29,789 nt of DNA from a bacterium (GTDB lineage Bacteria; UBP14; UBA6098; JAFGQG01). The notes under the pieces were generated by a model. It did no database searches, was not told where the DNA came from, and was given only the letters and a program-made list of their open reading frames with translations. Shown in pieces: positions 64 to 29,352 of this stretch (positions within the stretch are counted from its first letter, which is position 1; each line of letters begins with the position of its first letter). The DNA is taken from NCBI GenBank assembly GCA_016935765.1, contig JAFGQG010000049.1, positions 1-29,789 on the forward strand, read 5' to 3'. A program made the translations under genes and the position numbers.

Positions 64-2064
64 CTAATCCGGTAATGAAATTCTAAACACCACCGTATCG
101 GTCGCTAAAATCCAGTAACCACTACCGGGGAAGAGGGTGTCAGCAATAAAGTAGGCATGTGTTTCAGAAGAGTATCCAAATGGCATTGAAAGCATTTCAG
201 GGATAGTGTCCAGAAATGTAACAGGAATAGGTATAGAGAGTGCGCCAATCAGGTTCCAGCCGGGATAGAGGGAGAAAGTGTACGAATAAATTATTTCCCC
301 TTCGATAGCAATAATTGTATCAATTTCAGAAAAAACCCAATATCCAACACCTGAGTTTAAGGTATCGCTGACTGTATAGGTTCTTAAAGTTGGTGAGAAA
401 GTATATGAGGGAGGTATTGCAAAAGGTAATATCGCTTCCAGTGTCGGTATACTAACTTCCCTTTGAAGCGATATAAGATTCCAACCAGTGTATAAATTAG
501 ACCATATTGAAAAACCCATATCATGTTCATAAACCCCCATATCCCAATCGAGACCTGAAGGACGAGGATTACCTTCAATATCATATACGGAAGCCCATAC
601 AGTATCCCCCCAGAATGACACTAAGAATCTCGAACCAGAATCAATGGCGGGAGACCCTTCAACAAGTTTAAAATTCCCTGAAGGACCGTCAACAAAGCAC
701 GGATCGCTTCCCAGGACATTAGGCCCTTTAATCAGTTTACAATATGTCTCAAGGGTGCAGTTCAATGTATCCAGGAGTGAATAAGCCACATGCAGAGTAC
801 AAGGGCGTGGAGGATACAGCTCAAGAGATAATGCAATATCGTTGGCAACTGAATCGGCTAGGTTATCACAGATAATAGAATTAAAGCAGCAGCTTTTAAG
901 ATTATTCCTACAGAATATACCACCACCGGATAAATTTGCATAATTGTTAAAGATAACGCAATTAACAATATTCACCCCATTCGTTCCAATGATTGCTATA
1001 CCACCTCCATCAAAGTTGGAAGTATTGTGATAAATTTCATTATTAATTATTTTAGATGGAGACCGTTCACAATATATTCCTCCTCCTCTTCCACCCGCAA
1101 AATTATTGTGTATCTTGTTATTCATAATTATTGCATTCCCATGCGATATATTAATCCCACCACCATCTGACATGATGCATGGTGCGGTATTATTTGAAAT
1201 AATATTATTTCTAATTATAGGACTGGAATGCGTACAATCTATTCCACCGCCCCTGTTTGCGGTTGCAGAAATTGAGTTTTCAGAGATTAAATTATATTCT
1301 ATCATTAAATCAGAAACAGAATAACAACAGACTCCCCCTCCCCAGTCTGCGAAATTATACATTATTATATTATCACATAATACTCCCGCTGAATACTGGT
1401 CAAAAGTAATTCCTCCCCCTCTTGCTCTTCCAGTGTTACCTATTATTTGATTTTCTCTAACTATACATACTGGGCATTTTTTACAACAAACGCCACCACC
1501 CCAACTCCCATTATTATACTCTATCATGCAAGATATTATTTGAACTTCTGAGTTATCGCAAAAAATCCCAGCTCCATATCCCGTTGATCTATTCAGTTTC
1601 ACTTTGGTGTTTTCTATAGATATTGTAGATTTAAATGTGTAAACACCTCCTCCATCTAGATCATATGAAAATAGGTCCCCTATAGCATTTCCATATTCAA
1701 TTATGCAGTACTGTAAGCTACACCCATGAGTATTATAAAACCTAATCCCGCCATGCCCCCCAGCGCTATCTGTCAGGTGAGTGTTCATTGCTGTGAAAAC
1801 AATCGAATCCATTTCCGTTCCGATGGCTTTTAGTACGGCGTTACTATCTATAATAAGGGGATAATGTCCTTGAAAAATGACAGAGCAGCCGGGCATAATC
1901 CGTAGGCTTGAGTCACAGGGAACGTTTATCTCATCTGTAATTAGGTATGGCGACCCAGAAATTTCCCAGACACCGAAGACGTCCCCCGACACGAATGTTG
2001 TGTCAGCAAATAATACATTCGTCAAAACAAATAAAAGTGATAGCGCAATCAGGAATTTTTTCAT
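64..2064 (-). CDS. Secreted right-handed parallel beta-helix (PbH1/pectate-lyase-like) repeat protein with a C-terminal tandem GWNL[IV]S/GYW module
   Basis: 666-aa ORF. The N-terminus MKKFLIALSLLFVLTNVLFA reads as a signal peptide. The minus-strand ATG at 2064 is preceded by AAGGTGG 9 nt upstream. There are about 9 Gly-triplet rungs (DGGGVY, WGGGVCC, GGGITF, WGGGVCC, GGGIDC, GGGINIS, GGGIYC, GGGIAII, GGGIFC) spaced ~22-25 aa apart, as in beta-helix proteins. The last ~150 aa hold two copies of the motif (TGWNLIS...GYWVFS and YPGWNLIG...GYWILA) that is also found at the C-terminus of the 26140..29352 ORF. Confidence 0.75.
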   Translation of the reverse strand: MKKFLIALSLLFVLTNVLFADTTFVSGDVFGVWEISGSPYLITDEINVPCDSSLRIMPGCSVIFQGHYPLIIDSNAVLKAIGTEMDSIVFTAMNTHLTDSAGGHGGIRFYNTHGCSLQYCIIEYGNAIGDLFSYDLDGGGVYTFKSTISIENTKVKLNRSTGYGAGIFCDNSEVQIISCMIEYNNGSWGGGVCCKKCPVCIVRENQIIGNTGRARGGGITFDQYSAGVLCDNIIMYNFADWGGGVCCYSVSDLMIEYNLISENSISATANRGGGIDCTHSSPIIRNNIISNNTAPCIMSDGGGINISHGNAIIMNNKIHNNFAGGRGGGIYCERSPSKIINNEIYHNTSNFDGGGIAIIGTNGVNIVNCVIFNNYANLSGGGIFCRNNLKSCCFNSIICDNLADSVANDIALSLELYPPRPCTLHVAYSLLDTLNCTLETYCKLIKGPNVLGSDPCFVDGPSGNFKLVEGSPAIDSGSRFLVSFWGDTVWASVYDIEGNPRPSGLDWDMGVYEHDMGFSIWSNLYTGWNLISLQREVSIPTLEAILPFAIPPSYTFSPTLRTYTVSDTLNSGVGYWVFSEIDTIIAIEGEIIYSYTFSLYPGWNLIGALSIPIPVTFLDTIPEMLSMPFGYSSETHAYFIADTLFPGSGYWILATDTVVFRISLPD

Positions 2065-2140: not shown

Positions 2141-2335
2141 AAAATAACATTTTAAAATCATTTGTCAATTTCAAATTGTGCATACTACGATACCATACTT
2201 CATGTGATATACTGAATTTTGTTATCGTAAAAAAAAATTAATTATTAAAGATAGAATGCTGTTGCCAAAGATATGTATTCTTTTTAAATTCGAGGTTTGG
2301 ATGGATTAACTTGTAAGAATAAACCGGAGGGAATA

Positions 2336-12042: not shown

Positions 12043-13314
12043 ATGTTAGATATAAAGTTTATCAGGGATAACATCGACAGGGTTAAGAAAGCCTGCAGGG
12101 ATAAAAATGAAGATGCGGATATTAATATGCTTATCCAGATTGATCAGGAAAGGCGGCAATTTATAAAAGAGGTGGATTCTCTTCGTGAGAAAAACAATAA
12201 AATTGCATCGGAAATAGGGGAATTAGTCCGGTCAGGGCAGGACATATCGAATCTAAAAGATGAAGCAAAAGCCATCTCGAACCAGATAAAGGATAAGGAG
12301 CAGGAACTAAAGGAACTGCAAGCCAAGCTGGATTTACTGTTATTGAAGGTACCTAACATACCCGACCCTAGCGTTCCGGTGGGTTTTAATGAAGAACAAA
12401 ATCTTGATATCAGTGAATACGGCGGGAAACCTCAATACGATTTCGAAGTGAGGGATCACTATTTTCTCGGTGAAGTCCTTGACATTCTGGACTTTAAGAG
12501 GGGGGCCAAGATCGCGGGGTCATTCTTCCCGATGTACAAGGGTGACGGAGCTCACCTGAAAAGAGCGCTGATAAATTTCATGTTCGAGGTTCACACACTT
12601 GAACATGGTTATACAGAAGTTTCACCGCCCTTCCTGGCGAACAGGGATTCAATGACCGGAACCGGACAGCTTCCCAAATTAGAGAATGACATGTACTACG
12701 TGGAATCTGACGATCTTTTTCTTATACCCACCGGAGAAGTCCCTGTTACCAATATCTACAGGGATGAGTATATTCCCGAGGCAAAACTCCCTGTTAAATT
12801 CGTTACATATACTCCTTGCTTTCGCCGGGAAGCCGGGGCTTATGGAAAAGACACCAAGGGTTTGATAAGGGTGCACCAGTTCGATAAGGTGGAGTTGGTA
12901 AAGTTCACTCACCCGGAAAGTTCATACGATGAGCATGAAAACCTTTTAAAGGACGCCGAGAATATCCTTCAGAGACTCGGATTGCATTACCGGGTGCGTT
13001 TATTATGTACGGGCGACCTGAGTTTCTCCGCCGCCAAATGCTACGATATAGAGGTATGGGCTCCGGGGACCGGGAAGTATCTCGAAGTATCATCCTGTTC
13101 CAACTTTGAGGATTTTCAAGCCAGAAGGGCAAGTATAAAGTTTAAATCGAAAGCCACTGGAAAATCGGAATACGTTCACACGTTAAACGCTTCGGGAGTG
13201 GCTTTGCCGCGGTTGGTTATAGCCATATTAGAGACTTACCAGACCAAGAACGGTAAAATTAATGTGCCGGATTGCCTGAAGAAATATTTTAACGGGAAAG
13301 AGATAATTGGCTAA
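12043..13314 (+). CDS. serS: Seryl-tRNA synthetase
   Basis: 423 aa. N-terminal coiled-coil arm, then class II core motifs (FRREAGAYGKDTKGLIRVHQFDKVE, GLHYRV, NASGVALPR). Confidence 0.95.
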   Translation: MLDIKFIRDNIDRVKKACRDKNEDADINMLIQIDQERRQFIKEVDSLREKNNKIASEIGELVRSGQDISNLKDEAKAISNQIKDKEQELKELQAKLDLLLLKVPNIPDPSVPVGFNEEQNLDISEYGGKPQYDFEVRDHYFLGEVLDILDFKRGAKIAGSFFPMYKGDGAHLKRALINFMFEVHTLEHGYTEVSPPFLANRDSMTGTGQLPKLENDMYYVESDDLFLIPTGEVPVTNIYRDEYIPEAKLPVKFVTYTPCFRREAGAYGKDTKGLIRVHQFDKVELVKFTHPESSYDEHENLLKDAENILQRLGLHYRVRLLCTGDLSFSAAKCYDIEVWAPGTGKYLEVSSCSNFEDFQARRASIKFKSKATGKSEYVHTLNASGVALPRLVIAILETYQTKNGKINVPDCLKKYFNGKEIIG

Positions 13315-14626
13315 AAGAGACCAGCATAAATTAAAACTCACTACTTCTGTCGTTTATAAGAAGTTCTCTTTAAGCTATAAAGTAGTGCTTTTAATCGCAT
13401 TTATCTTGTTGATCGCGTTCTTTTTCTATTATACTGAAAACGTTCGAAGTCAAATTATCGAATACAACAAGCGTATCGTCAATGTTTATGCGAGGTTATG
13501 GACATCTGCGGTGGCGCAGACCGTGGGTGGTGAAGAGCTGAATATTATCTTCGAGGAGATAATTTTAAAGTGTGATTTCCCCATGGTTTTCACAAACGTT
13601 GAAGGCCAGGTTACGAATTTCAGGAATCTCTCCATAGATCCTAGCGAGGTTAATCAGGATAACATTGAGAAACTGAACAAGGAACTTGATGATATTAAAA
13701 AGCAAAACAAGCCTGTACCTATTTATTTGGGCGATACCAGAGAGATATTAGGCTACATCTATTTCGGGGAATCTCGTTTCATACGGTGGCTGAGACTTCT
13801 GCCGATATTCGAAGTAATACTCTTAAGCGTTTTCATAATAATTGGATTCGCTATCTACGGGCGGATCAAGTCCTATGAACAGCAGAATATCTGGTTGGGG
13901 ATGGCACGTGAAACCGCTCATCAATTAGGAACGCCGCTTTCTTCTTTACTGGGCTGGATAGAGCTTCTCGAGGCAAGACTGGCTGAAATGGAGAAAAATT
14001 GTGAAATAGAACTCGCTAAGGTTGACCAGGATTCCAAAACCATGTCCCCCTACTATATTCTCGATGAGATGAAAAATGACATTGAATTATTGAACCGAAT
14101 CGTCGTCCGTTTCGGAAAGATCGGCTCAATACCCGATATCGAGGATATCGACGTAAACACTATAACCCAAGAGGTAGTCCAGTACCTGAAAGAGCGTCTT
14201 TCCCCCTTGAGAGAATACATCCAAATGACCGAGAGGTATACTAAGCTACCAAAAGCGCGGGGTAATTCATATTTACTTCGCTGGGCGCTCGAAAATCTTA
14301 TAAAAAATTCTATTGAAGCGATTGACACCCGGGAAGGAAAAATAAGCGTATCAACGAGGGTCGATCTGGAAGGTGAAAAAGTATGCATCATTGTGACGGA
14401 TAATGGGAGGGGTATACCATCAAAGGCGCAAAAAGACATATTCGCGCCCGGTTTTACTACAAAAAAACGCGGATGGGGATTAGGTCTTTCCCTGGCTAAA
14501 AGAATAGTCGAACAACAACAGAACGGCAAACTGTACCTTCTCGAAAGCAAGTCAGGTGAAAAAACAACTTTTGTAATAGCATTGCCTATCAAAGAAGGAG
14601 AGGAAATAAAAGATGAAGTCGACTAA
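13307..14626 (+). CDS. Sensor histidine kinase, PorY-like (two TM helices flanking a ~120-aa periplasmic loop, HisKA + HATPase_c)
   Basis: TM1 VVLLIAFILLIAFFFYY and TM2 ILLSVFIIIGFAIY. H-box ARETAHQLGTPLSSLLGW. N-box/G-boxes LENLIKNSIEAI, VTDNGRGIP, GWGLGLSLAKRIV. TTG start at 13307 overlaps the serS stop. The 3' end overlaps the next gene by 14 nt. Confidence 0.85.
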   Translation: MAKRDQHKLKLTTSVVYKKFSLSYKVVLLIAFILLIAFFFYYTENVRSQIIEYNKRIVNVYARLWTSAVAQTVGGEELNIIFEEIILKCDFPMVFTNVEGQVTNFRNLSIDPSEVNQDNIEKLNKELDDIKKQNKPVPIYLGDTREILGYIYFGESRFIRWLRLLPIFEVILLSVFIIIGFAIYGRIKSYEQQNIWLGMARETAHQLGTPLSSLLGWIELLEARLAEMEKNCEIELAKVDQDSKTMSPYYILDEMKNDIELLNRIVVRFGKIGSIPDIEDIDVNTITQEVVQYLKERLSPLREYIQMTERYTKLPKARGNSYLLRWALENLIKNSIEAIDTREGKISVSTRVDLEGEKVCIIVTDNGRGIPSKAQKDIFAPGFTTKKRGWGLGLSLAKRIVEQQQNGKLYLLESKSGEKTTFVIALPIKEGEEIKDEVD

Positions 14627-16178
14627 AAAAATACTATGGGTAGATGACGAAATAACCCAGTTAAGACCGCATATATTCTTTCTCGAGGAGAAAGGGTATA
14701 AAGTCACTCCCGCGTCAAATGGCAGGGATGCCATCGCGATGCTTGAAAAAAACGATTATGACATAGTTCTTCTGGACGAGATGATGCCGGGGCTGGATGG
14801 ATTATCAACTCTTGAAGAGATGAGAAAGATCGATGCCTTTATCCCCGTTATTATGATAACTAAAAGCGAGGAAGAAGGACTTATGGAGCAGGCGATCGGA
14901 AAGGAGATCACGGACTACCTCATTAAGCCGGTAAACCCGAAGCAGATTTTGCTTTCCCTTAAACGACTGTTCGAAACGAGACAAATAGTGCAGGAAGAGA
15001 TCGTTAAAAAATATACAACAGAATACAGAAGATATTCAGTTGAACTGACCTCCATTTCAACCCCTGAAGGCTGGTTCGAACTGGCAATGTGGATTGCGGA
15101 TTGGAACGTTATTTTCGACAAGCATCCCAACCTCGGTCTTACGGAATCGCATAAGGATTTCACACGCGAATGCAACGTTGAATTCGGTAAATACATTGAA
15201 GGGAGCTATGTCAATTGGATATACGACGACCAGAGACCAACGATCTCAACAGATATTGTAAAGAAAAAAATGGCTCCCATAATGAGAGACGGCAAGAAAG
15301 CACTTCTTATGGTTATCGACTGCTTAAGGTTGGACCAGCTTTTGACAGTAAAAGGTTTATTGAACCAATATTTCGAACTGGATCTTGAACTCTATTTCTC
15401 TATTCTTCCGACAGCAACCCCATTCTCCAGGAACGCTATATTCAGTGGTCTGTTTCCCCTGGAACTCGCAAGGAAGTATCCCGAGCTATGGAGCCAGGCT
15501 TTCGCCGATCCCCAAAGCAGAAACAGGTATGAACACCAGCTGCTGGACAAGCAGTTAGCGAAACTTGATGTTGAAATCAAGGGAGATACTAAATACATAA
15601 AAATACTTGATCCTCAGGAAGGAGAATTCTTCCTGAAACACCTGCAAACTTATGCATCAGCGCCCCAATCATCAGTGGTCATTAACTTTCTCGATATTCT
15701 CGCTCATTCCAGATCAAGCTCCGACGTGATACAGGAGATCTCCCCGGACGAAAGGGCTTACCGAACGATAATGAAAACATGGTTCTCTAACTCCCCATTC
15801 TTCGAAGCGCTTAAAATATTATCTAAAAAAGACGATATTAAAATTATCATAACCACCGATCACGGCAGCACTATCGGACTTCGCGGAACAAAAGCTTATG
15901 GAGGAAAGGATACATCCCCATCCCTTCGGTATAAATATGGTAATAATCTCAACGCTGAAGCCAAGGACGCACTTATTATCAGAGACCCCAAGGAATATAA
16001 ACTCCCTGATTTCAACATGTCAACAACCTACATAATCGCCAAGGAAGATTACTTTTTCGTATATCCTTCAAACTTTGGGAAGTACGAACAGGAGTATAAA
16101 AACAGCATTCTCCATGGAGGCATTTCGCTAGAGGAGATGATAATTCCGGTAATGGTCCTGACACCTAGAAGCACCTAA
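14613..16178 (+). CDS. PorX-like response regulator: CheY-type receiver fused to a PglZ (alkaline-phosphatase-superfamily) domain
   Basis: RBS AAGGAGAGG. REC domain with ILWVDDE, phospho-acceptor in IVLLDEMMPGLDG and K in YLIKPV. The C-terminal ~380 aa carry PglZ-type motifs MVIDCLRLDQ, LPTATPFSRNAIFSG, IIITTDHGS and HGGISLEEM. The 521-aa length and REC-PglZ architecture match P. gingivalis PorX. Confidence 0.85.
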   Translation: MKSTKKILWVDDEITQLRPHIFFLEEKGYKVTPASNGRDAIAMLEKNDYDIVLLDEMMPGLDGLSTLEEMRKIDAFIPVIMITKSEEEGLMEQAIGKEITDYLIKPVNPKQILLSLKRLFETRQIVQEEIVKKYTTEYRRYSVELTSISTPEGWFELAMWIADWNVIFDKHPNLGLTESHKDFTRECNVEFGKYIEGSYVNWIYDDQRPTISTDIVKKKMAPIMRDGKKALLMVIDCLRLDQLLTVKGLLNQYFELDLELYFSILPTATPFSRNAIFSGLFPLELARKYPELWSQAFADPQSRNRYEHQLLDKQLAKLDVEIKGDTKYIKILDPQEGEFFLKHLQTYASAPQSSVVINFLDILAHSRSSSDVIQEISPDERAYRTIMKTWFSNSPFFEALKILSKKDDIKIIITTDHGSTIGLRGTKAYGGKDTSPSLRYKYGNNLNAEAKDALIIRDPKEYKLPDFNMSTTYIIAKEDYFFVYPSNFGKYEQEYKNSILHGGISLEEMIIPVMVLTPRST

Positions 16179-16692: not shown

Positions 16693-18753
16693 ATGACAAA
16701 ATACTTCATTAAACAGCCTGAAGCATTAATTATCTTTTTACTTCTGACGGTTTTCTTTTCAGCCAGCGTCTTTGCAATAAACCGTACAGAACCGATTGTT
16801 GTTTACGATGACGGTGAGGAAATAGAACTGGTAACTCCCCCTGTATCTATGGAAAGCAAGCTGAACGAGATTGAGAGAAGTAGTATAAATACCAATGAAA
16901 TAAATATATGGGTATTTTTTACTGATAAGGGCATATTTACTAAAGAAAATTATATTGACAAAAAATCAGAAACATGGTATAACTTATCAGAACGCAACAT
17001 GATCAGGCGGAGAAGGCTCGGTTATGACAAGGTCAATTTCACGGATATCCCGATACCTGGGAGCTATATTGAAGAAATAACGGGGCAGGGCGCAAACTTA
17101 AGGTATTCATCAAGATGGCTGAATGCTGCTACCTTTGAGATCGACCCTTCGATACTCCGCGACATCGCTGACCTCCCTTTCGTCAGGGATATCAGGAGCG
17201 TGAAAGTTAGCAGACAAATACTTGACAAACCACAGCGAAAAGTGAAGAAATATAAGGAGGGGTACGATGATAGCAACGTATATGGTGGGTCATATTACCA
17301 GCTATCAATAATGGGAGTTCCAGAGCTTCACCAGGCAAATCTGCACGGAGAAGGGGTGCTCATCGGTATATTCGATACTGGGTTCCTTACATCGCATAAC
17401 GCGTTCGACAGCATAAACATCATCTATACGTGGGATTATATCCAGGGGGATACAGTAGTCGATAACGAGGAGGGTGATGCGTATAATCAGCACAACCACG
17501 GGACAAACACACTGGGGACGCTTGCCGGGTTCTTTGAAGGCGAGCTGGTAGGTCCGGCATACAAAGCGGACATTGCTATCTTCAAAACGGAACAGGTCGA
17601 TGCCGAAACGGTCTGGCAGGAGGAAGACAGGTGGGTGCGTGCGATAGAGAAAGCTGAAAGCCTCGGTGTGGATATCATCTCCAGTTCTCTGGGATACGGA
17701 ACATCTGATGGGGACGATGGATACACATACATGGACATGGATGGGAATACCGCGCTGACTACCATCGCTGCGGATATCGCGGCCTCGAAGAATGTGCTGG
17801 TAGTAACCGCAGCAGGGAATGAGAGACGAAACTTCTGGCATTACATTATTGCGCCCGGTGATGGCGACAGCGTCCTGACAGCCGGCGCTATGGATTCTGC
17901 CGGTACTTATGCAGCGTTTTCCTCACCAGGACCAACTTACGATGGCAGGATCAAACCCGACCTTTCAGCACTCGGAATGAACGTTGTCTGCGCCTCCCCC
18001 GAGGACACTAACGCTATTACCCGCTCGAACGGGACTTCGTTCGCGACCCCTCTTCTCGCTGGAACCGCCGCGCTCGTCCTCCAGCACAGCTTCAGCTCCG
18101 ACACGCTCACCGCCATGGAACTGCTCGATACGCTAAAATCGACCGCCGACCAGTGGTACGAACCCGATAACGACTTCGGCTGGGGAAGACCGCATTGCCT
18201 TCTCGCGACAGGGAACGCGGGGGGAGTATATGGCATCGTTAAAGACGCATCGAACGGTTTGCCCATGGAAGAAGTAGCAATCCACTTCCACTCAGATACA
18301 CTCTACGGTCAGAAGTACACCGATGAGAGGGGCAGGTTCCTCATACCTGTCGAAAATCCGGGCTTATACACATTTTGTTTCTCGATGCCGGGGTATTCGC
18401 CAGCAACCAGGACGGTGACAGTAACCCGGAACGAAAAGGTGGAATTCCACATAGATATGGCAGTACCTGTGGATGAGAAGATATTCATATATCCCAATCC
18501 ATTCTCCGACAGCCTGGTGGTGGGGGTTTACCCTGACAGTGTCGATACGATACCGCAGGATGATCTCTCGATGTGGGTGTGGAACGCCGCCGGGCAGTTA
18601 GTATTCGAAAAGCACGTGGACATTCAGTACGTGAACCCATACATCTGGCGAACGAAGACGGGCTCGGGCAGGAAACTGGGAAGCGGGATCTACATTATTT
18701 ATGCGGAATACAACAAGTTCACGAGGAAAGAGAAAATCGCGTTGATAAGGTGA
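16693..18753 (+). CDS. Secreted subtilisin-family (S8) serine protease with CarbopepD_reg-like domain and T9SS type-A C-terminal sorting domain
   Basis: Signal peptide. Catalytic triad contexts VLIGIFDTGF (Asp), HGTNTLGTLAG (His) and GTSFATPLLAGTAALV (Ser). GIVKDASNGLPMEEVAIHF looks like a carboxypeptidase-regulatory-like beta-sandwich. The last ~90 aa (IFIYPNPFSDSLVVGV...GIYIIYAEYNKFTRKEKIALIR) match the T9SS C-terminal domain pattern, YPNPF at the start and a basic residue-rich end. Confidence 0.9.
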   Translation: MTKYFIKQPEALIIFLLLTVFFSASVFAINRTEPIVVYDDGEEIELVTPPVSMESKLNEIERSSINTNEINIWVFFTDKGIFTKENYIDKKSETWYNLSERNMIRRRRLGYDKVNFTDIPIPGSYIEEITGQGANLRYSSRWLNAATFEIDPSILRDIADLPFVRDIRSVKVSRQILDKPQRKVKKYKEGYDDSNVYGGSYYQLSIMGVPELHQANLHGEGVLIGIFDTGFLTSHNAFDSINIIYTWDYIQGDTVVDNEEGDAYNQHNHGTNTLGTLAGFFEGELVGPAYKADIAIFKTEQVDAETVWQEEDRWVRAIEKAESLGVDIISSSLGYGTSDGDDGYTYMDMDGNTALTTIAADIAASKNVLVVTAAGNERRNFWHYIIAPGDGDSVLTAGAMDSAGTYAAFSSPGPTYDGRIKPDLSALGMNVVCASPEDTNAITRSNGTSFATPLLAGTAALVLQHSFSSDTLTAMELLDTLKSTADQWYEPDNDFGWGRPHCLLATGNAGGVYGIVKDASNGLPMEEVAIHFHSDTLYGQKYTDERGRFLIPVENPGLYTFCFSMPGYSPATRTVTVTRNEKVEFHIDMAVPVDEKIFIYPNPFSDSLVVGVYPDSVDTIPQDDLSMWVWNAAGQLVFEKHVDIQYVNPYIWRTKTGSGRKLGSGIYIIYAEYNKFTRKEKIALIR

Positions 18754-23084: not shown

Positions 23085-25829
23085 ATGGAAACAAAAGATT
23101 TCGAAAAAGGACCGTTTCTTATCACTGATGTGGGCAGTACAACCACGAAAGCATTTCTATTTGAACCAGGTAAAAAATGGGGTTATTACCGGGAGGAGGG
23201 ACCGACGACCGTAGAGAAACCCTATGAAGATGTTACCATAGGGGTTTTGAACGCTGTTTGGGAACTTGAGAAAACCACTGGAAGAAAGTTATTGGAAAAC
23301 GGGAAGCTGTGTATCCCGTATTTATCTACTTCCAGCGCCGGTGGCGGTTTAGCGATGGTTGTCGCGGGATTGATCCGGCAGATAACAACGAAAAGCGCTG
23401 AACGGGTCGCCCTTGGTGCTGGCGCGATCCTTCTCGATATTATCGCTCTCGATGATGGGAGAACACCTTACAAGAAGATAGAAGCCCTTAAAAATGTGCG
23501 CCCCGATATGCTGCTTCTATCGGGCGGTTTCGACCATGGCTCGCTGTCCGGACCGGTTTTCATCGCTGAAATAATATCCCAGGCTGAGCTGCATCCCAAG
23601 TTAAGCAAGCAGGCAAAATTGGACCTCATCTTCGCGGGTAATGTAGATGCAAGGGAGTGGGTTGAGAAAACCATGACTGGTAATTTCGTGATACATCACG
23701 TGCCCAACATAAGACCTGAAGGAGACAGGGAGAACCTCGAACCGGCTAGAGACAGGATTCATGAGTTGTTCACACAGCACGTAATGTCGCACGCTCCGGG
23801 ATATGAAAAGCTGAAGCGCTGGGTGTCTGCGCCAATACTACCCACACCCGCCGCCTTTTCAAAGCTCCTCGCATCCATATCCGAGGACCTTGACAAGCGA
23901 ATTCTAGCGATAGACATAGGCGGCGCGACGACCGACATCTTCACCGCGGAAGGCGGGGACGTGTTTAGAACCGTCAGCGCGAACCTCGGCATGAGTTACA
24001 GTATCATGAACGTTATAAGGAGCAGCGGATTAAGCACAATAAACAAAATGCTTCAAGCAGACATTTCCGATACTGACCTTCTCGATAAAATAGGCAACAA
24101 ACACATAAATCCAACCAGTCTCCCTGAAAAAGTTGAGGACGCTCAGATCGAGCAAGCCGTAGCGACTGTAGCGATTCGTGAAGCGTTAAAAGAGCACCTG
24201 TCAGTACTGAAGGGTTTGAGTTTCAGCCTGGGCCAGGAGGAACTGAACCTGGGAAATTTGAAGCCACAGGAGCTTAAGTGGCTCGATTCGGAAGAATTTC
24301 AGCTTGAAGGTTATGACGTCATTATAGGAAGCGGAGGCATCCTGTCTCATTCACCGAGAGAAATCGCCGCGGAGATCCTTCTCAATGGATTGCAGCCGCG
24401 GAATGTAGTTTCGCTTGCCGTAGATTCTTCTTTCATGTTCCCCCAACTCGGGGTACTCTCCCAGGTTGCGCCGGAGCTGGCTAAGGAACTGTTCTACGAG
24501 ATCGGGTATATCAAGCTTGCCACCGCTGTATCTCCAGTAACAGGCGACAAACCCGGAAATAAAATATTGACAATTCGTGAAATTAATGACAATAAAAGAG
24601 CTGAAGACATAGACTTGAACGCGGGGGAGGTCAGGATGGTCCCCGTCGGGAAGGACGCGAAATTTTCGGTGAGAAGCGGGGAATTGAACAATAAAACTCA
24701 CGAAATCCACGCTGAAAGCTCCCTTTTCGGTTTGATCCTTGATGGAAGGATACGCCCAATTAATAAAAAGCCCCACCTGTTTGAGAATGTCGAATACGAT
24801 TTGAAGAAGCGCAAGATCGAGGCGATGTCTGAAACCAGTTTATATCGCGGGGATATTGAAATAAAGCGCGAATTAGCTATACCGGGCGAGGTCTATGTTA
24901 AAGCTGGGCAGGAGGTTTCATCAGATACTGTGGTTGCGAAATGCGTAAAAGCCTTCCTCAGGCCATTCTTTCTCGACATAGCCAGTGTGTTGAACATTTC
25001 TCCGGAGAAGCTGAAGGAGGTTTTGTCAAAAAAGATAGGCGACGATGTTCATTCCGGGGAGGTAATTGCTCAGACTTCTGGTATATTGGGGAAGAAATTC
25101 CGTTCTCCCGTGTCCGGAACGGTCGAGAAGATATTGCCCGATGGTTCGATAGTAGTCCGCGAGAAACCTGAGTATGCTAAAGAAGTTTACATCATAGATG
25201 TCGCAAGAGAGTTATCCGTAAAGCCTTTTGAAATAAAACCCTACTTGAAAGTACAGGTTGGTCAGGAAGTTGGAAAGACCCAGCATGTTGCTGCCAAGAT
25301 GACGGTGAACGAGATGAAGTTCGCCAGGTCCCCGATGAGAGGGATCGTTACCGATATCAAAACCGAGGAAGGATTGGTAGTAATAGAGCCTCTCCTGGAG
25401 GAGCTGGAACTTTTTGCCTGGCTTCCCGGGAAAGTAAGCGAGGTATTCCCGGGAGGGTGTTCTATAAGGAACAGGGGCACGATTATTCAGGGAACCTGGG
25501 GTTTGGGTGGGGAGGCCTATGGAAATCTGAAGTTCAGCAAACCTGAACCCAACTGCATTTTCGTGAGTGAAAGAGTCGATTCTGATTTGCTGGATTCTCT
25601 AAAAAGAGAAAGGGTTTCTGGACTGATAACCGCGGGTGTTCATCTGGCGCATTTCTGGAAGGATGAACCGGAATTCACTGTAGTTTTGCTCAAGGGCTTC
25701 GGGGATAAAAGCTTCGATACAGAGACAATTGAAATTTTAAGGGCGAAGGAGAACTGTCTTGCTTTATTGGATGGAACGACTCAGTTGAGGGTAGGCGTGA
25801 AGAGACCGAAGATCATAATACCTGGGTAA
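23085..25829 (+). CDS. GlmL/MutL-like ASKHA-fold ATPase (N-terminal ~470 aa) fused to a ~440-aa C-terminal region with repeated barrel-sandwich-hybrid-like segments
   Basis: 914 aa. N-terminal phosphate-1-like motif FLITDVGSTTTKAF, a second one LAIDIGGATTDIFTA, and the adenosine-motif-like DVIIGSGGILSHSP. This duplicated RNaseH-like layout is as in glutamate-mutase-associated GlmL. The C-terminal half has repeated lipoyl/biotinyl-type hybrid-barrel signatures: GEVYVKAGQEVSSDTVVAKC, RSPVSGTVEKILPDGSIVV, KVQVGQEVGKTQHVAAKM, RSPMRGIVTDIKTEEGLVVIEP. Confidence 0.7.
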   Translation: METKDFEKGPFLITDVGSTTTKAFLFEPGKKWGYYREEGPTTVEKPYEDVTIGVLNAVWELEKTTGRKLLENGKLCIPYLSTSSAGGGLAMVVAGLIRQITTKSAERVALGAGAILLDIIALDDGRTPYKKIEALKNVRPDMLLLSGGFDHGSLSGPVFIAEIISQAELHPKLSKQAKLDLIFAGNVDAREWVEKTMTGNFVIHHVPNIRPEGDRENLEPARDRIHELFTQHVMSHAPGYEKLKRWVSAPILPTPAAFSKLLASISEDLDKRILAIDIGGATTDIFTAEGGDVFRTVSANLGMSYSIMNVIRSSGLSTINKMLQADISDTDLLDKIGNKHINPTSLPEKVEDAQIEQAVATVAIREALKEHLSVLKGLSFSLGQEELNLGNLKPQELKWLDSEEFQLEGYDVIIGSGGILSHSPREIAAEILLNGLQPRNVVSLAVDSSFMFPQLGVLSQVAPELAKELFYEIGYIKLATAVSPVTGDKPGNKILTIREINDNKRAEDIDLNAGEVRMVPVGKDAKFSVRSGELNNKTHEIHAESSLFGLILDGRIRPINKKPHLFENVEYDLKKRKIEAMSETSLYRGDIEIKRELAIPGEVYVKAGQEVSSDTVVAKCVKAFLRPFFLDIASVLNISPEKLKEVLSKKIGDDVHSGEVIAQTSGILGKKFRSPVSGTVEKILPDGSIVVREKPEYAKEVYIIDVARELSVKPFEIKPYLKVQVGQEVGKTQHVAAKMTVNEMKFARSPMRGIVTDIKTEEGLVVIEPLLEELELFAWLPGKVSEVFPGGCSIRNRGTIIQGTWGLGGEAYGNLKFSKPEPNCIFVSERVDSDLLDSLKRERVSGLITAGVHLAHFWKDEPEFTVVLLKGFGDKSFDTETIEILRAKENCLALLDGTTQLRVGVKRPKIIIPG

Positions 25830-26139: not shown

Positions 26140-29100
26140 TTGATGAGAAAGTTATTGTTATGTTCATTATTAACGGTGATGCTGTGCTCACTTCTATATG
26201 GTTTTGATCCTGCTTCACCCCCTACCGACCGGGCTGAATATGATCGATGGAAATTGGAGCTTTTAGAGAGAATAGCGCCTCCGCGAGCGGCGTTCCCCAT
26301 GGATTTCTCCGTGGACAACGGCTATGTTGACGTTATTATGGAGACTGCTTCCGGGGCTGGCTCCTTTGAGCAGGGGGGAGACCCATCGGGATCCGGAAGT
26401 TACCTGAAACTAACCTATTACTACCCATCTGTGCCATGGTCGTATTCCATCTACAAGATCGATGGCCATACACCAGAACAGCAGTACAGAACCGGGCCTG
26501 ATTGCACTTTGATAACAGCGCCCGACGAGATTTTCGTGACTTCCGACGAGATCATTCGAACGATATGGAACGACAGGCATGGAGTCAAGATAATTCAGGA
26601 TTTGAAATGTGTCAGCCTGGGCAGTGACCCCGGAGATAACGAACAGGTAAAATATACAACCAAGTTCATACCTACCGATCGTGATTCGCACAATTGCGGC
26701 TGCCTGGTATATTATGACACGAAGCTTGCTTCCAATGACGGAGCTCCCATCTCGACTTCCTACGGTTATTCGGGCATGGCGGAAATCTGGTTCGCGGATG
26801 AAGTTCCCGCTGTCTGGAGGGCTTACGAAGTAGGTTACCCGCCAGCGCCGAGCGATCTGCAGGCTCTCGGAATTTTACGCGGTTTCGAAGCGACTTACCC
26901 CGACGTTTTCTGGTGCGGCAGATGGCCGATATCATACAGCAACGGTTGGGACGACCTTTACTGGATAGAAGATGCGGTCGGAGACTTCGGATACGACACC
27001 GCAACCATGGTGAAGTGGTATCCAAGGTGGGTTCACCCGGGAGATACTTTAGTTTACACCACTTATTATGGCATCGGGGAGCTTTCCGAGGAAATCTCGA
27101 TTTACCATACTCCGCCAACTTTATGGTCTGATTGCGCCAGTCCGCGTCCGAATCCGTTCAGCATAGACGTGCTCATTTCGAACGGAGGCGAAGCTACCGC
27201 AAGCGGTGTTTCTGTGATTATCGACCTGACCGGGACGGGCCTGGAATTGGCTGAAGGTTATGACCTCATCATCGATATTGGCGACCTGGTCGGTTTCGGA
27301 GGCAGCGAAGTCGCAACATGGCATATCGTTGTCCCGCCTGGGCTTTACGATACAACCGTATGTTATACGATCGCATTGGTTTATGAGGGCTCTGATCCCA
27401 TAATCGACACCTTCTGCATTTACCTCCCCGAGCTCGCTCCCGGTCCCTACGGAATGCTCATCGAACCCCTTGAAGGAGCAAGAACCACCTGCGCCGACCA
27501 GCAAGTTGTAAACCAATTCCACGTGGACTTCGGGATCGATACATCTTCGATCAGGTTCGTCATCGAAGCAGATTTATATACGATGGACGATCCGGAACTC
27601 TCGATAATCAACGACAGCTTCCTGGTGTTCCAACCCTCAACCGATTATATCGATGGATTTACGTACACATGGGGGGTGGCATCCTTCCTGGATACCGCCG
27701 GGTGTCCCATACTCGGTCTGGGCGGCACCTTCACTCCCGACCTGTCCGGGCCGGTTGCATCCAACGAATACCCGGAAAACGGCGCTATCATTGCAACCAC
27801 AAACATACCGGAATTCACAGTGGACATCGAAGACGCGGTTACCCCAGTCGATGAAAGCACGATAGAGCTCGAAGTCAATGGCATTGTTTACGACATGACA
27901 CATCCAGCTCTAACCTGGGATGGCGCAACGCTTCACTTTTCACCCGCTGACGCCGGAATAGAAATTGAAATTGGCGATACCTTCGATATATGTCTGAATG
28001 CTGCCAACGATATGCCTTCGGACTACTGTGAAGGCAATACCCTTCAGGACGCCCCTTATTGCTGGACTTTCAACGTCAACGTGGTCGAGCTCTACCTTCC
28101 TGACACCACCGCGTACATTGGGGACAATATCCTGGTACCCATTTATATCGAAGAGGTTGACCAGTACAATATCACCAGCTTCACCTTGATCATCGACGCC
28201 AACCCGGATGTTCTCACTCCTCTCGGAATAACCACCGACGGCACGATCGTTGCCCCCTGGGCTGGAGACCTGACCGTAACCATCGATGGCGGTACTATAA
28301 TTATCGAGGGCAATGGTCCTACCCTGAGCGGCTTCCCGGTTTTCTTCTTCATCGAATACATGGTGAATACCACCGGAAGCGAAGGCTCGTTCACGAGGCT
28401 CGAGTTCAGCGAGGCAACCTTCAACGATGGCGACATCACCTCGGTGCCGGAGGACGGATTCCTTATCGTACTCTGGACCAACCCGCAGTGGGTAGTTGAC
28501 CTTGTATTTTCACCTGACGCTTCAGCGCTGTCTCATACTATAACTTTCGGAGCTTCCGGTCACGCTGACGACGGCTTCAACCCGGGACTCGACCTCATCA
28601 CACTGCCACCAGTAGGGAACATCCATGCCTACTTCCCGCTTGCTGACCCTGATAACCCGCACATTGCGAGGCTTCAGAGAGACATCAGGTACTCCGAAGC
28701 TCTACCCATAATCTGGGAAGCGGTAGTGGATATCAACCCGGACGCCGATCCGTGGACGGTTACATGGCGACCGGAATACCTCCCCGACGGCAGGTTCGAG
28801 ATATACGAAGAGGACGGCGCGATCGTCGATATGCACTATAACAACTCCTATTCATCGAACGGTGACGTTAGCGTTTTCGTTAAGTTTTCGCACCCTGAGT
28901 TAGCTATCCAGAACGTCGTATTACCCGAGGGCTGGAACCTGGTATCCTTCCCGTACATACCGACTGGCGAGATCTCCTTCCAGGAACTGCTCCCCGGTGT
29001 GGTATCCGACGGCTACTGGTATAATGGTGAAACAAGAGTGTACGAAGTAAGGGAATACCCTGAAGCAGGAAAGGGTTACTGGGTTTATGCCGCTGAACCG

Positions 29101-29352
29101 GTTGACACGAGAATTGCCGGAATGGCTGTGGATGAGTACACCATCAGCGTATATCCCGGCTGGAACCTCATCGGTGTACCTTATTCTGAAACGGGAAGCA
29201 TCTCGGGAACCGGCACTTTCTACTGGTACAATCCCGAGGGCAGCGGATACGAAGACCCGGCGGGAACACTCAACATGTGCTATGGATACTGGTACTTCAC
29301 CACGGAACCCGGATTGCTTCACGCTGACGGATTCTCCGTACCGGCGAGATAG
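26140..29352 (+). CDS. Large secreted multidomain protein (CARDB-like and cohesin-like beta-sandwich modules) with C-terminal tandem GWNL[IV]S/GYW module
   Basis: 1070 aa. RBS AGGAGG 7 nt upstream. Signal peptide MMRKLLLCSLLTVMLCSLLYGF. The segment FSIDVLISNGGEATASGVSVIIDLTG..LELAEGYDLIIDIGDLVGFGGSEVATWHIVVP is CARDB-like. The segment YIGDNILVPIYIEEVDQYNITSFTLIIDANPDVLTPLGITTDG... is cohesin-like. The last ~150 aa hold LPEGWNLVSFPY...GKGYWVYA and VYPGWNLIGVPY...GYWYF, the same module as the C-terminus of 64..2064. Internal antisense ORFs (26672..27118, 27121..27522, etc.) are GC-driven artefacts. Confidence 0.8.
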   Translation: MMRKLLLCSLLTVMLCSLLYGFDPASPPTDRAEYDRWKLELLERIAPPRAAFPMDFSVDNGYVDVIMETASGAGSFEQGGDPSGSGSYLKLTYYYPSVPWSYSIYKIDGHTPEQQYRTGPDCTLITAPDEIFVTSDEIIRTIWNDRHGVKIIQDLKCVSLGSDPGDNEQVKYTTKFIPTDRDSHNCGCLVYYDTKLASNDGAPISTSYGYSGMAEIWFADEVPAVWRAYEVGYPPAPSDLQALGILRGFEATYPDVFWCGRWPISYSNGWDDLYWIEDAVGDFGYDTATMVKWYPRWVHPGDTLVYTTYYGIGELSEEISIYHTPPTLWSDCASPRPNPFSIDVLISNGGEATASGVSVIIDLTGTGLELAEGYDLIIDIGDLVGFGGSEVATWHIVVPPGLYDTTVCYTIALVYEGSDPIIDTFCIYLPELAPGPYGMLIEPLEGARTTCADQQVVNQFHVDFGIDTSSIRFVIEADLYTMDDPELSIINDSFLVFQPSTDYIDGFTYTWGVASFLDTAGCPILGLGGTFTPDLSGPVASNEYPENGAIIATTNIPEFTVDIEDAVTPVDESTIELEVNGIVYDMTHPALTWDGATLHFSPADAGIEIEIGDTFDICLNAANDMPSDYCEGNTLQDAPYCWTFNVNVVELYLPDTTAYIGDNILVPIYIEEVDQYNITSFTLIIDANPDVLTPLGITTDGTIVAPWAGDLTVTIDGGTIIIEGNGPTLSGFPVFFFIEYMVNTTGSEGSFTRLEFSEATFNDGDITSVPEDGFLIVLWTNPQWVVDLVFSPDASALSHTITFGASGHADDGFNPGLDLITLPPVGNIHAYFPLADPDNPHIARLQRDIRYSEALPIIWEAVVDINPDADPWTVTWRPEYLPDGRFEIYEEDGAIVDMHYNNSYSSNGDVSVFVKFSHPELAIQNVVLPEGWNLVSFPYIPTGEISFQELLPGVVSDGYWYNGETRVYEVREYPEAGKGYWVYAAEPVDTRIAGMAVDEYTISVYPGWNLIGVPYSETGSISGTGTFYWYNPEGSGYEDPAGTLNMCYGYWYFTTEPGLLHADGFSVPAR

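What the first reader, a model, noticed from the sequence alone, without database searches (positions are those of the whole stretch)
28903..29352. Unassigned, internally duplicated C-terminal module (GWNL[IV]S...GYW, twice) shared by two unrelated large secreted proteins
The last ~150 aa of the 1070-aa protein (26140..29352) and of the 666-aa beta-helix protein (64..2064, C-terminus at nt ~64..520) are clearly homologous, though the protein bodies are not. Each contains two ~70-aa units built as [LY]PxGWNL[IV][SG]..[PS]...then an aromatic/Gly-rich stretch ending G.GYW[VIY]. The four copies read TGWNLISLQ...GVGYWVFS and YPGWNLIGALS...GSGYWILA in one protein, and PEGWNLVSFPY...GKGYWVYA and YPGWNLIGVPY...GYWYF in the other. 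The same window encodes an S8 protease with a textbook T9SS type-A C-terminal domain (YPNPF...KIALIR), and this module does not resemble that domain. It also does not resemble LPXTG, PEP-CTERM or GlyGly-CTERM sorting signals. A C-terminal module shared across otherwise unrelated cargo is the hallmark of a sorting or anchoring signal, or a cell-surface attachment domain. I cannot assign it to a known family from memory.
Basis: seen in the sequence. Interest (0 to 1): 0.72.

Follow-up and report, generated by a model that had tools for sequence, protein, structure and literature searches.

The report
Unannotated tandem beta-sandwich accessory domain
Two unrelated secreted proteins in this window end in the same ~145-residue, internally duplicated all-beta domain; it belongs to a very large bacterial and archaeal family that no curated database describes, and it is a passenger-side accessory (probably binding) domain rather than a secretion or sorting signal.

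Summary
The C-termini of the 1070-aa protein (module at 28903-29322, +) and the 666-aa beta-helix protein (73-510, -) are homologous (BLASTP E=2e-15). An HMM built only from non-window members gives E=1e-32 and 7e-36. Each module holds two ~72-aa units (GWN[LM][IV][SG]...GxGYW); unit 1 vs unit 2 gives hhalign 99.4%.

The sorting-signal reading is not supported:
- In 94 of 132 complete genes from species genomes the module is followed by a tail. All 10 tails sampled from these 94 passed the curated T9SS type-A model.
- It also occurs N-terminally, internally, in up to five copies, and upstream of Kunitz or Kazal domains.
- It occurs in archaea that have no outer membrane.
- It is the only globular domain of some membrane-tethered proteins.

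I think a non-catalytic binding or retention module is most likely; an inert spacer is the main rival. This is a new domain family of an ordinary kind, of moderate interest.

The parts
28903..29322 (+). GWN-GYW tandem module of protein A (aa 922-1061 of 1070)
   Evidence: Non-window HMM E=1.3e-32. AF2 pLDDT 91.5, pTM 0.86, 14 beta strands and one short helix. BLASTP vs the protein B module E=2e-15.
28903..29127 (+). Protein A, unit 1 (…PEGWNLVSFP…GKGYWVYA…IAG)
   Evidence: Single-unit HMM E=4.5e-18. Strands E2-7, E10-15, E37-41, E46-50, E57-63 and E67-72, plus helix 26-29.
29128..29322 (+). Protein A, unit 2 (…YPGWNLIGVP…CYGYWYF…)
   Evidence: Single-unit HMM E=2.5e-12. The strand order repeats that of unit 1.
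73..510 (-). GWN-GYW tandem module of protein B (aa 519-664 of 666)
   Evidence: Non-window HMM E=6.8e-36. AF2 with an independent alignment gives pLDDT 94.0 and pTM 0.88, with the same strand order.
292..510 (-). Protein B, unit 1 (…YTGWNLISLQ…GVGYWVFS…IEG)
   Evidence: Single-unit HMM E=2.4e-16.
73..291 (-). Protein B, unit 2 (…YPGWNLIGAL…GSGYWILA…)
   Evidence: Single-unit HMM E=1.6e-17.
26140..29352 (+). Protein A, whole ORF (1070 aa from the TTG; an ATG follows at 26143). It has an N-terminal signal-peptide-like segment, MRKLLLCSLLTVMLCSLLYG. The body has no family match except a weak cohesin-like stretch.
   Evidence: Public gene calls start at the ATG at 26179 and so lose the signal peptide (P0014).
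28087..28437 (+). Weak cohesin-like stretch in protein A (aa 650-766)
   Evidence: PF00963, 22.4 bits, below the 24.1 cutoff, E=1.5e-4. The archaeal member P0198 is labelled 'Cohesin domain-containing' by UniRef; the same call shows no precomputed Pfam domain for it.
64..2064 (-). Protein B, whole ORF (666 aa): signal peptide MKKFLIALSLLFVLTNVLFA (2005-2064), right-handed beta-helix (about 1117-1749), choice-of-anchor Q domain (523-687), then the module.
   Evidence: Beta_helix PF13229 E=1.9e-14 and NosD. NF041518 choice_anch_Q, 30.4 bits against a cutoff of 25, aa 460-514.
18487..18738 (+). Context only: divergent T9SS type-A C-terminal domain of the S8 protease (16693..18753). It shows that the organism probably has a T9SS, and that proteins A and B lack this signal.
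   Evidence: TIGR04183, 23.4 bits against a cutoff of 23 on the isolated tail. A CTD HMM built from Ignavibacteria tails gives E=1.3e-3 over its full length.

Best explanation
The shared tail is an independently folding extracytoplasmic domain of about 145 residues. It consists of two tandem ~72-residue beta-sandwich repeats that pack into one compact unit. Each repeat has six strands and a short helix, with the signature [hydrophobic]xLxxGWN[LM][IV][SG]xP ... F ... Y ... PGxGYW[VI] ... G. It belongs to a very large family of bacterial and archaeal secreted and surface proteins that no curated database describes. It sits on the passenger (cargo) side of the protein. After Sec export it stays with the mature protein, and where a T9SS C-terminal signal exists it lies downstream of the module. 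My inference for its function is a non-catalytic binding or retention module, comparable to a CBM or lectin or to an envelope-binding domain. It would hold very different 'heads' (beta-helix enzymes, peptidases, protease inhibitors, propellers, LRR adhesins, cohesin-like domains) on a common insoluble ligand, most plausibly a glycan polymer of the cell envelope or the extracellular matrix. What is shown: the homology, the duplication, the fold confidence, the family size, the domain architectures and the absence of any relation to known sorting domains. What is inferred: the binding function and the nature of the ligand. I put about 0.9 on 'real accessory domain, not an export signal' and about 0.45 on 'binding or retention module'.
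For: The homology and duplication are real. Both window modules give confident, compact models: pLDDT 91.5 with pTM 0.86, and pLDDT 94.0 with pTM 0.88. The family has 26,226 clusters at 50% identity with E<=1e-3 and 11,192 with E<=1e-10. Members look extracytoplasmic: 85 of 103 full-length members have a signal-peptide-like N-terminus. The attached bodies are extremely diverse, with 76 Pfam families in 62 members (beta-helix, SBBP/NHL/RCC1 propellers, LRR_5, Flg_new, peptidases C10, M1, M28 and M4, and others). The module lies on the passenger side. A T9SS type-A CTD lies downstream of it in 9 of 10 non-terminal metagenomic members. In species genomes 94 of 132 complete genes carry a tail after the module, and all 10 tails sampled from these 94 pass the TIGR04183 cutoff. 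The module also appears to function on its own. P0242 is a signal peptide plus the module, and P0003 and P0036 are an N-terminal membrane segment plus a Pro/Thr linker plus the module as the only globular domain. It is fused to small Kunitz or Kazal inhibitor domains. It usually occurs as one two-unit copy near the C-terminus rather than in variable-number arrays, which is how CBMs and anchoring modules behave. Each unit is rich in conserved aromatic positions.
Confidence: 0.5

Rival explanations
1. The module is an inert structural spacer or insulator: a rigid beta-sandwich pair that separates the functional head from the C-terminal signal or the cell surface. This would resemble the Ig-like (IgSF) domain that precedes the T9SS CTD in RgpB, Kgp and PPAD.
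For: In most Ignavibacteria-type genes it occupies the position just before a T9SS CTD, 45 to about 140 residues upstream. PMC4804311 proposes that the IgSF domain in that position 'may act as a spacer or insulator'. The invariant residues look structural. No fold match to a known binding domain was found.
Against: Stand-alone proteins made of a signal peptide plus the module, and proteins made of a membrane anchor, a linker and the module, have nothing to space. Spacer domains such as FN3, PKD and Big usually occur in variable tandem numbers at variable positions, whereas this module is usually one fixed two-unit copy. It is terminal in archaea and PVC bacteria, where no signal follows it.
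Confidence: 0.25
2. The module is a protein-protein docking or oligomerisation domain. It would be functionally analogous to a dockerin and would plug diverse secreted proteins onto a scaffold or surface receptor, or multimerise them.
For: Like dockerins, it is internally duplicated, usually C-terminal, and appended to many unrelated secreted enzymes and inhibitors. Protein A has a weak cohesin-like stretch, and UniRef labels the archaeal member P0198 'Cohesin domain-containing'. The family spans bacteria and archaea.
Against: The module is all-beta and unrelated to the calcium-binding helical dockerin fold, and there is no PF00404 hit. Cohesin is not among the recurrent co-occurring families in 62 members. 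No conserved partner gene lies next to module genes in 118 loci; only other T9SS cargo genes recur there.
Confidence: 0.12
3. This is the first reader's leading idea: the module is a C-terminal sorting, export or covalent-anchoring signal for a dedicated pathway.
For: It is C-terminal (tail of 20 residues or fewer) in about two thirds of the top 154 family representatives. It is shared by unrelated cargo. In protein B it directly follows a 'choice-of-anchor Q' domain; from my own knowledge of NCBIfam naming, that type of domain normally precedes alternative sorting signals.
Against: A genuine T9SS CTD follows it in the same polypeptide in most species-genome examples. It occurs at N-termini (L029 aa 31-184 of 1702; L106 aa 49-199 of 1245; P0112; P0127), internally in giant proteins, five times in P0007, and upstream of Kunitz or Kazal domains. 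It occurs in Methanoculleus and Methanogenium, which have no outer membrane. At about 145 residues and folded, it has no motif-plus-TM-plus-basic tail. No neighbouring processing enzyme was found.
Confidence: 0.05
4. The similarity is due to chance or composition (aromatic- and Gly-rich low complexity) and is not homology.
For: None, beyond the aromatic- and Gly-rich composition.
Against: BLASTP with compositional adjustment gives E=2e-15. A non-window HMM gives E about 1e-32 to 1e-36, with no other window ORF at E<=0.01. More than 11,000 clusters score E<=1e-10. Both AF2 models are confident and alike.
Confidence: 0.01

Closest known systems
Ig-like (IgSF) domain that precedes the T9SS C-terminal domain in gingipains RgpB and Kgp and in PPAD (PMC4804311)
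   Same: Both are small all-beta domains that stay with the passenger. In T9SS-bearing lineages both sit immediately upstream of a type-A CTD, separated by a short linker.
   Different: No sequence or convincing fold relation was found. The module is a fixed tandem of two ~72-aa repeats. It is also found without any CTD, in archaea, at N-termini and as a stand-alone protein.
Carbohydrate-binding modules and lectin-like accessory domains of secreted enzymes
   Same: Both are non-catalytic beta-sandwiches rich in aromatic residues. Both are appended, mostly C-terminally, to many unrelated secreted enzymes, sometimes in several copies, and lie upstream of T9SS CTDs in FCB bacteria.
T9SS type-A C-terminal sorting domain (TIGR04183 / PF18962)
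   Same: Both have about 70-80 residues per unit, are all-beta, lie near the C-terminus of diverse secreted proteins and are abundant in FCB-group bacteria.
   Different: The profile-profile probability is 0.1-0.2% and there is no HMM hit. The PNPF and K-x-x-[LIVM]-K motifs are absent. The two domains coexist in one protein, with the CTD downstream.
Dockerin modules of cellulosomal and non-cellulosomal proteins
   Same: Both are internally duplicated, mostly C-terminal, attached to many unrelated secreted proteins, present in both bacteria and archaea, and occasionally found in proteins with cohesin-like domains.
   Different: A dockerin is a ~70-aa calcium-binding helical module (my own knowledge). 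This module is a ~145-aa all-beta structure with no PF00404 hit. No partner has been identified.
'Choice-of-anchor' domains of NCBIfam (for example NF041518 choice_anch_Q, present in protein B)
   Same: Both are accessory domains of surface proteins that sit just upstream of variable C-terminal anchors. Choice-of-anchor D, Q and U domains co-occur with the module.
   Different: The module matches none of these models. The only trace is choice_anch_R in 3 of 40 members at E>=0.045, which is noise.

Membership tests
T9SS type-A C-terminal sorting domain (TIGR04183 / PF18962 Por_Secre_tail) | Match to the curated HMM above its cutoff | tested here: not met
   Neither the window modules nor the whole proteins match at E<=1. 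None of 40 family modules matches at E<=10. The positive controls work: 10 of 10 tails downstream of the module score 33.8-47.3 bits.
T9SS type-A C-terminal sorting domain (TIGR04183 / PF18962 Por_Secre_tail) | Profile-level homology to CTD sequences | tested here: not met
   hhalign of unit 1, unit 2 or the whole module against an alignment of 94 CTDs gives probability 0.1-0.2%.
T9SS type-A C-terminal sorting domain (TIGR04183 / PF18962 Por_Secre_tail) | It is the most C-terminal element and the only export signal of the cargo | tested here: not met
   A genuine CTD follows the module in the same protein in 9 of 10 sampled non-terminal members and in 10 of 10 sampled tails.
T9SS type-A C-terminal sorting domain (TIGR04183 / PF18962 Por_Secre_tail) | Cleaved by PorU after translocation (PMC8545088, PMC4804311) | not testable with these tools
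   This needs proteomics of mature proteins.
T9SS type-B CTD (PF13585 CHU_C / TIGR04131) and FlgD Ig-like domain (PF13860) | Match to the curated HMM | tested here: not met
   No hit overlaps the module. The CHU_C and FlgD_ig hits seen in relatives fall on the downstream CTD.
Tripartite sorting signals (LPXTG/sortase, PEP-CTERM/exosortase, GlyGly-CTERM/rhombosortase, archaeal PGF-CTERM) | A short motif followed by a hydrophobic helix and a basic tail at the extreme C-terminus | tested here: not met
   Protein A ends ...TTEPGLLHADGFSVPAR and protein B ends ...TDTVVFRISLPD. Neither has a TM segment or a basic tail. No NCBIfam sorting-signal model hits.
Carbohydrate-binding modules (any Pfam CBM family) | Sequence or fold match to a CBM family | tested here: not met
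Carbohydrate-binding modules (any Pfam CBM family) | Demonstrated binding of a glycan ligand | not testable with these tools
   This needs binding assays on the purified module.
Dockerin (PF00404) | Duplicated calcium-binding EF-hand-like helical repeats and an HMM match | tested here: not met
   The models are all-beta and there is no PF00404 hit.
Ig-like pre-CTD (IgSF) spacer of gingipains | Seven-stranded Ig-like fold detectable by structure comparison | tested here: inconclusive
The new 'GWN-GYW tandem' family defined here | Two tandem ~72-aa units, each with GWN[LM][IV][SG] and GxGYW, that match the family HMM | tested here: met
   Both window proteins match: non-window HMM E=1.3e-32 and 6.8e-36, and all four units are found by single-unit HMMs. 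The invariant W of GWN is present in 175/175 and 177/177 family segments.

The most novel reading that the evidence does not exclude
The module is the cargo-side half of a previously unrecognised non-covalent docking or cell-envelope anchoring system shared by bacteria and archaea. It would be a beta-structured functional analogue of dockerin or SLH domains. Dozens of different secreted enzymes, inhibitors and adhesins per genome would be parked on one common receptor, either a surface glycan or a scaffold protein such as the cohesin-like domains seen in protein A and in Methanoculleus P0198. My evidence does not exclude this. The module is duplicated, mostly terminal, attached to very diverse heads, found across both domains of life, and sometimes the sole displayed domain. 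No partner was found in gene neighbourhoods, however.
Probability: 0.12. Interest if true: 0.7.

Novelty: new variant of a known kind. Interest (0 to 1): 0.4.

Why it matters
At least 26,000 protein clusters (50% identity level) from sediments, groundwater, guts and digesters carry this domain, yet Pfam-A (2025 copy), NCBIfam 20.0 and the PDB do not cover it, and sources call the proteins 'hypothetical' or name them after another domain. Defining it would improve annotation of the secretomes of Ignavibacteria, Lentisphaerae/Victivallales, Marinimicrobia, candidate FCB phyla and Methanomicrobiales. It would also mark a domain boundary that helps identify T9SS cargo. If it proves to be a binding or anchoring module, it would show where a large share of these organisms' extracellular enzymes are held. 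For this window specifically, proteins A and B carry the passenger-side domain but no T9SS signal, even though the neighbouring S8 protease has one. Their route across the outer membrane, if there is one, is therefore still open.

Tried and rejected
- The word-indexed homology search with a single module found only 6 fragments. The family's size became visible only with the exhaustive profile search.
I replaced it with a back-translated DNA pattern.
- The AFDB Foldseek library was unavailable, so annotated AlphaFold neighbours could not be checked.
- PDB was searched by sequence with both single modules and with the profile. The only hits were two chance matches at E about 0.25 to plant NAC proteins.
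- BFVD gave one hit (E=1e-4) to an 'uncultured marine phage' protein named 'putative hemin binding protein'. It is probably itself a family member on a misassigned contig and says nothing about function.
- Full-text literature searches for GWNLIS, GWNLI, GWNLVS, GWNMVS, GWNLIG, GWNMIG, GKGYWV and GWNLLS returned nothing relevant.
- Permissive per-member scans looking for a recurrent weak family returned only scatter.
- The ~130-aa segment between the module and the CTD is not a third, degenerate unit (hhalign probability <0.5%).
- Clustering of neighbouring genes to find a dedicated partner or processing enzyme found only other T9SS cargo.
- Exact-match look-ups to place the window taxonomically gave only short Logan contigs from SRR13394437. 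SerRS homologues place it as an unclassified bacterium near FCB-type candidate phyla.
- I could not map conservation onto the 3-D model because the coordinates are not exposed to the scripts.
Full report
OBSERVATION

The window encodes protein A (26140..29352, +, 1070 aa) and protein B (64..2064, -, 666 aa). Protein A has PEGWNLVSFPY...GKGYWVYA and YPGWNLIGVPY...YGYWYF. Protein B has YTGWNLISLQ...GVGYWVFS and YPGWNLIGALS...GSGYWILA. No other reading frame of the window contains a GWN[LIVM][IVL] motif.

BLASTP of the two ~160-residue tails gives 33% identity over 135 columns, E=2e-15. It also aligns unit 1 of one protein with unit 2 of the other (E=2e-9 and 2e-3). Full-length BLASTP finds nothing outside the tails.

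To avoid circularity I built an HMM from 175 family segments that exclude the window. It hits only these two window ORFs (E=6.8e-36 for B, 1.3e-32 for A), and no other window ORF scores E<=0.01. Single-unit HMMs recover all four units (E=3e-7 to 4.5e-18). At family level, unit 1 vs unit 2 gives hhalign probability 99.4%, E=8.7e-22 over 71 columns. The module spans 28903-29322 in A and 73-510 in B.

WHAT THE TWO PROTEINS ARE

Protein B has a signal peptide, a right-handed beta-helix (PF13229, E=1.9e-14) and an NCBIfam 'choice-of-anchor Q' domain at aa 460-514 (30.4 bits, cutoff 25). The module follows directly.

Protein A has a signal-peptide-like N-terminus, MRKLLLCSLLTVMLCSLLYG. Public gene calls start 13 codons later and lose it (P0014). 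Its only family trace is a sub-threshold cohesin-like stretch at aa 650-766. Neither protein ends in a motif-plus-TM-plus-basic tail.

The contig is deposited as an unclassified '[bacterium]'. Its SerRS is 67% identical to that of another unclassified bacterium and 57-60% identical to those of Zixibacteria, Latescibacteria, KSB1 and Eisenbacteria. The window also encodes LptF/G, so the organism is a diderm. The S8 protease's last ~85 residues just reach the T9SS type-A model (23.4 vs 23 bits alone, 18.8 bits in the whole protein). The organism therefore probably has a T9SS, but that CTD is divergent rather than 'textbook'.

THE MODULE IS A VERY LARGE, UNANNOTATED FAMILY

- Pfam-A and NCBIfam give no hit on either module at E<=1.
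- The word-indexed search found only six fragments.
- A profile of those fragments plus the two window modules, searched exhaustively against 1.84 billion representatives, found 26,226 clusters at E<=1e-3, 11,192 at E<=1e-10 and 95 at E<=1e-30.
- Of 62 full-length members scanned, no Pfam or NCBIfam family is common to all. The most frequent one, Por_Secre_tail, occurs in 10-12 of them. The module itself is therefore not modelled in either library.
- Permissive scans (E<=10) of 40 isolated modules show no recurrent weak family; the maximum is 3 of 40 at E>=0.045.
- Sources name these proteins 'hypothetical protein' or after another domain.
- Full-text searches for eight motif strings found no relevant paper.

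STRUCTURE

AlphaFold2 with a 40-sequence alignment gives pLDDT 91.5 and pTM 0.86 for A's module. With an independent 56-sequence alignment it gives pLDDT 94.0 and pTM 0.88 for B's module. Both models show the same order of elements, six strands and one short helix per unit, and the high pTM indicates that the two units pack in a fixed arrangement.

Family conservation over 177 segments is as follows. The W of each GWN is invariant (175/175 and 177/177). G10, N12 (N in 143 segments, H in 24), S15, P17, F29, Y47, G58-Y59-W60 and G73 are conserved in unit 1. The equivalent positions are conserved in unit 2.

ARCHITECTURES: THE KEY EVIDENCE ON FUNCTION

1. Among the 154 proteins in hand after the profile search (the listed representatives plus the six earlier fragments), about two thirds have the module within 20 residues of the C-terminus. 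A recurrent subset has a tail of about 100-130 or 200-260 residues after it.
2. I scanned ten of those with tails. Nine have a curated T9SS type-A sorting domain downstream of the module (PF18962 and TIGR04183, all above cutoff).
Almost all are MAGs, two thirds or more of them labelled Ignavibacteria, Melioribacteraceae, Bacteroidota or similar. Others are Lentisphaeria/Victivallales, Poribacteria, Caldithrix and Neomarinimicrobiota, and there are several archaea.
4. In these loci 132 complete ORFs carry the module. Thirty-three are terminal (tail <=35 aa; none has a PNPF motif). Eighteen have a 110-145-aa tail, and 17 of those have [YF]PNP[FW]. Seventy-six have a 200-260-aa tail, and 69 of those have the motif. 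Ten randomly drawn tails all pass TIGR04183 (33.8-47.3 bits against a cutoff of 23).
5. The module is unrelated to the CTD by profile-profile comparison (probability 0.1-0.2%) and to the ~130-aa 'ELPPxPPxGxFDVRF' segment that separates them in the long-tail class.
6. The module is not confined to C-termini. It lies at aa 31-184 of a 1702-aa ORF (L029), aa 49-199 of 1245 (L106), aa 29-170 of 764 (P0112) and aa 43-181 of 1149 (P0127). It is internal in a 5267-aa protein (P0038) and occurs five times in P0007. In P0226 a Kunitz domain follows it, and in P0029 a Kazal domain does.
7. It occurs in archaeal isolates. Methanoculleus sp. FWC-SCC1 P0198 consists of a signal peptide, a region that UniRef labels cohesin, and the module at the extreme C-terminus; it lies among PKD-rich surface-protein genes. 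Methanogenium sp. MK-MG has a 901-aa ORF with a terminal module. These organisms have no outer membrane and no T9SS.
8. It can be the only globular domain. P0242 (Ca. Magnetoglobus) is a signal peptide plus the module. P0003 and P0036 are an N-terminal hydrophobic segment plus a Pro/Thr-rich linker plus the module.
9. The attached bodies are extremely diverse, with 76 Pfam families in 62 proteins. They include beta-helix, SBBP/NHL/RCC1 propellers, BspA-type LRR, Listeria-Bacteroides repeats, peptidases C10, M1, M28 and M4, GSDH, laminin-G and choice-of-anchor D, Q and U.
10. By a crude hydrophobicity heuristic, 85 of 103 full-length members have a signal-peptide-like N-terminus. Most exceptions look like mis-called starts.
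11. Clustering 334 neighbouring ORFs from the 118 loci gives only one recurrent group, other T9SS cargo joined through their CTDs (28 of 32 carry a CTD). No dedicated partner or processing enzyme emerges.

INTERPRETATION

A sorting signal should be the terminal element, occur once, be dispensable in the mature protein, and track the distribution of one machinery. This module fails each of these tests (points 2-8). The established T9SS signal is a ~70-80-residue C-terminal Ig-like sandwich that PorU removes, after which anionic LPS is attached (PMC4804311, PMC8545088). Here that signal lies downstream of the module, so the module belongs to the passenger.

Two ordinary roles remain: a binding or retention module, or an inert spacer like the IgSF domain that precedes the CTD in RgpB, Kgp and PPAD, which PMC4804311 suggests 'may act as a spacer or insulator'. 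I favour binding or retention, at about 0.45, for three reasons:
- The module is displayed on its own at the end of membrane-anchored linkers and as a stand-alone secreted protein.
- It is fused to tiny inhibitor domains.
- It appears as one fixed two-unit copy rather than in variable arrays.

I put the spacer at about 0.25, a dockerin-like protein-docking or oligomerisation role at about 0.12, and a sorting signal at about 0.05.

The main weakness of the binding model is that there is no ligand and no similarity to known binding folds. The invariant residues may also be purely structural.

For the window's own proteins A and B one question stays open. They carry the passenger-side domain but no T9SS CTD, although the neighbouring S8 protease has one. 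Whether and how they cross the outer membrane is unknown.

CAVEATS

- The top-150 list is biased towards high scorers.
- Some MAG labels are probably wrong. Contigs labelled Gammaproteobacteria, Saccharibacteria and Rhodospirillaceae carry T9SS-CTD cargo and are likely binning errors.
- Signal peptides were judged with a simple heuristic.
- The model coordinates could not be inspected.

NOVELTY AND SCORE

This is a new domain family with no curated model, no solved structure and no literature trace. It is of a familiar kind, a non-catalytic accessory beta-sandwich on secreted proteins. Its size and its spread across both prokaryotic domains make it worth defining and testing. Nothing so far would astonish a specialist. 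Interest 0.4; novelty 'new variant of a known kind'.

Noticed in passing
L116, L068, L094, L039, L027 and others (tails after the module; e.g. L025:5667-6326): A second conserved segment of about 130 residues with no family match in the scans run lies between the module and the T9SS CTD in most Ignavibacteria-type cargo. Its motif is [YF]ELPPxPPxGxFDVRF. It has no NCBIfam hit in 6 sampled long tails and no Pfam hit in five relatives. It is unrelated to the module (hhalign probability <0.5%) and also occurs in 10 neighbouring genes that lack the module.
   Followed up: partly
window 26140-26205: Public gene calls for protein A (P0014, 1057 aa; Logan SRR13394437) start at the ATG at 26179. That removes the n-region and half of the h-region of the signal peptide. 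The ATG at 26143 (or the TTG at 26140) restores MRKLLLCSLLTVMLCSLLYG. Signal-peptide-based secretome predictions would therefore miss this protein.
   Followed up: partly
window 16693-18753 (tail 18487-18738): The S8 subtilase has a CarboxypepD_reg domain and a divergent T9SS type-A CTD that reaches the TIGR04183 cutoff only when the tail is scanned alone (23.4 vs 23 bits). Pfam's Por_Secre_tail did not report it at E<=1e-3.
   Followed up: yes
window 2297-3403: This 368-aa protein is an internal duplication. It contains, twice over, a double zinc ribbon, a B-box-like zinc finger and a DUF2007-like domain (CPKCxxEY...C.DCG...CENCG...C.HCGA...C.NHPD...FVCLICxKP.C). No signal peptide is evident, and the function is unknown.
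   Followed up: no
window 23085-25829: This 914-aa protein has an N-terminal 'MutL protein' domain (PF13941, the glutamate-mutase-associated family, E=3.7e-98). It is followed by regions with weak matches to the barrel-sandwich hybrid domains of RnfC and NqrA. This is an unusual fusion.
   Followed up: no
window 14613-16178, with 13307-14626 upstream: A response regulator receiver domain is fused to a PglZ (alkaline-phosphatase-like) domain. It lies immediately downstream of a histidine-kinase-like ORF.
   Followed up: no
L077, L026, L053 (genome-contig loci): Contigs from MAGs labelled Gammaproteobacteria, Candidatus Saccharibacteria and Rhodospirillaceae encode proteins with the module plus a T9SS type-A CTD (…SGIYFY…KKMLLLK). 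These are probably binning or labelling errors rather than a real spread of T9SS cargo to those taxa.
   Followed up: no
L011, L075, L025/L034 (genome-contig loci): Up to three or four module-bearing genes lie in tandem within 8 kb in Ignavibacteria-type genomes. Their neighbours are enriched in other T9SS-CTD cargo, so these regions look like cargo gene islands.
   Followed up: partly
window 6804-7553: A TPM-domain (PF04536) protein with a signal peptide ends in a TM-like segment followed by a long Gly-rich tail (GGGFSGGGSGFSGGFGGFGGGSFGGGGAGRGY).
   Followed up: no
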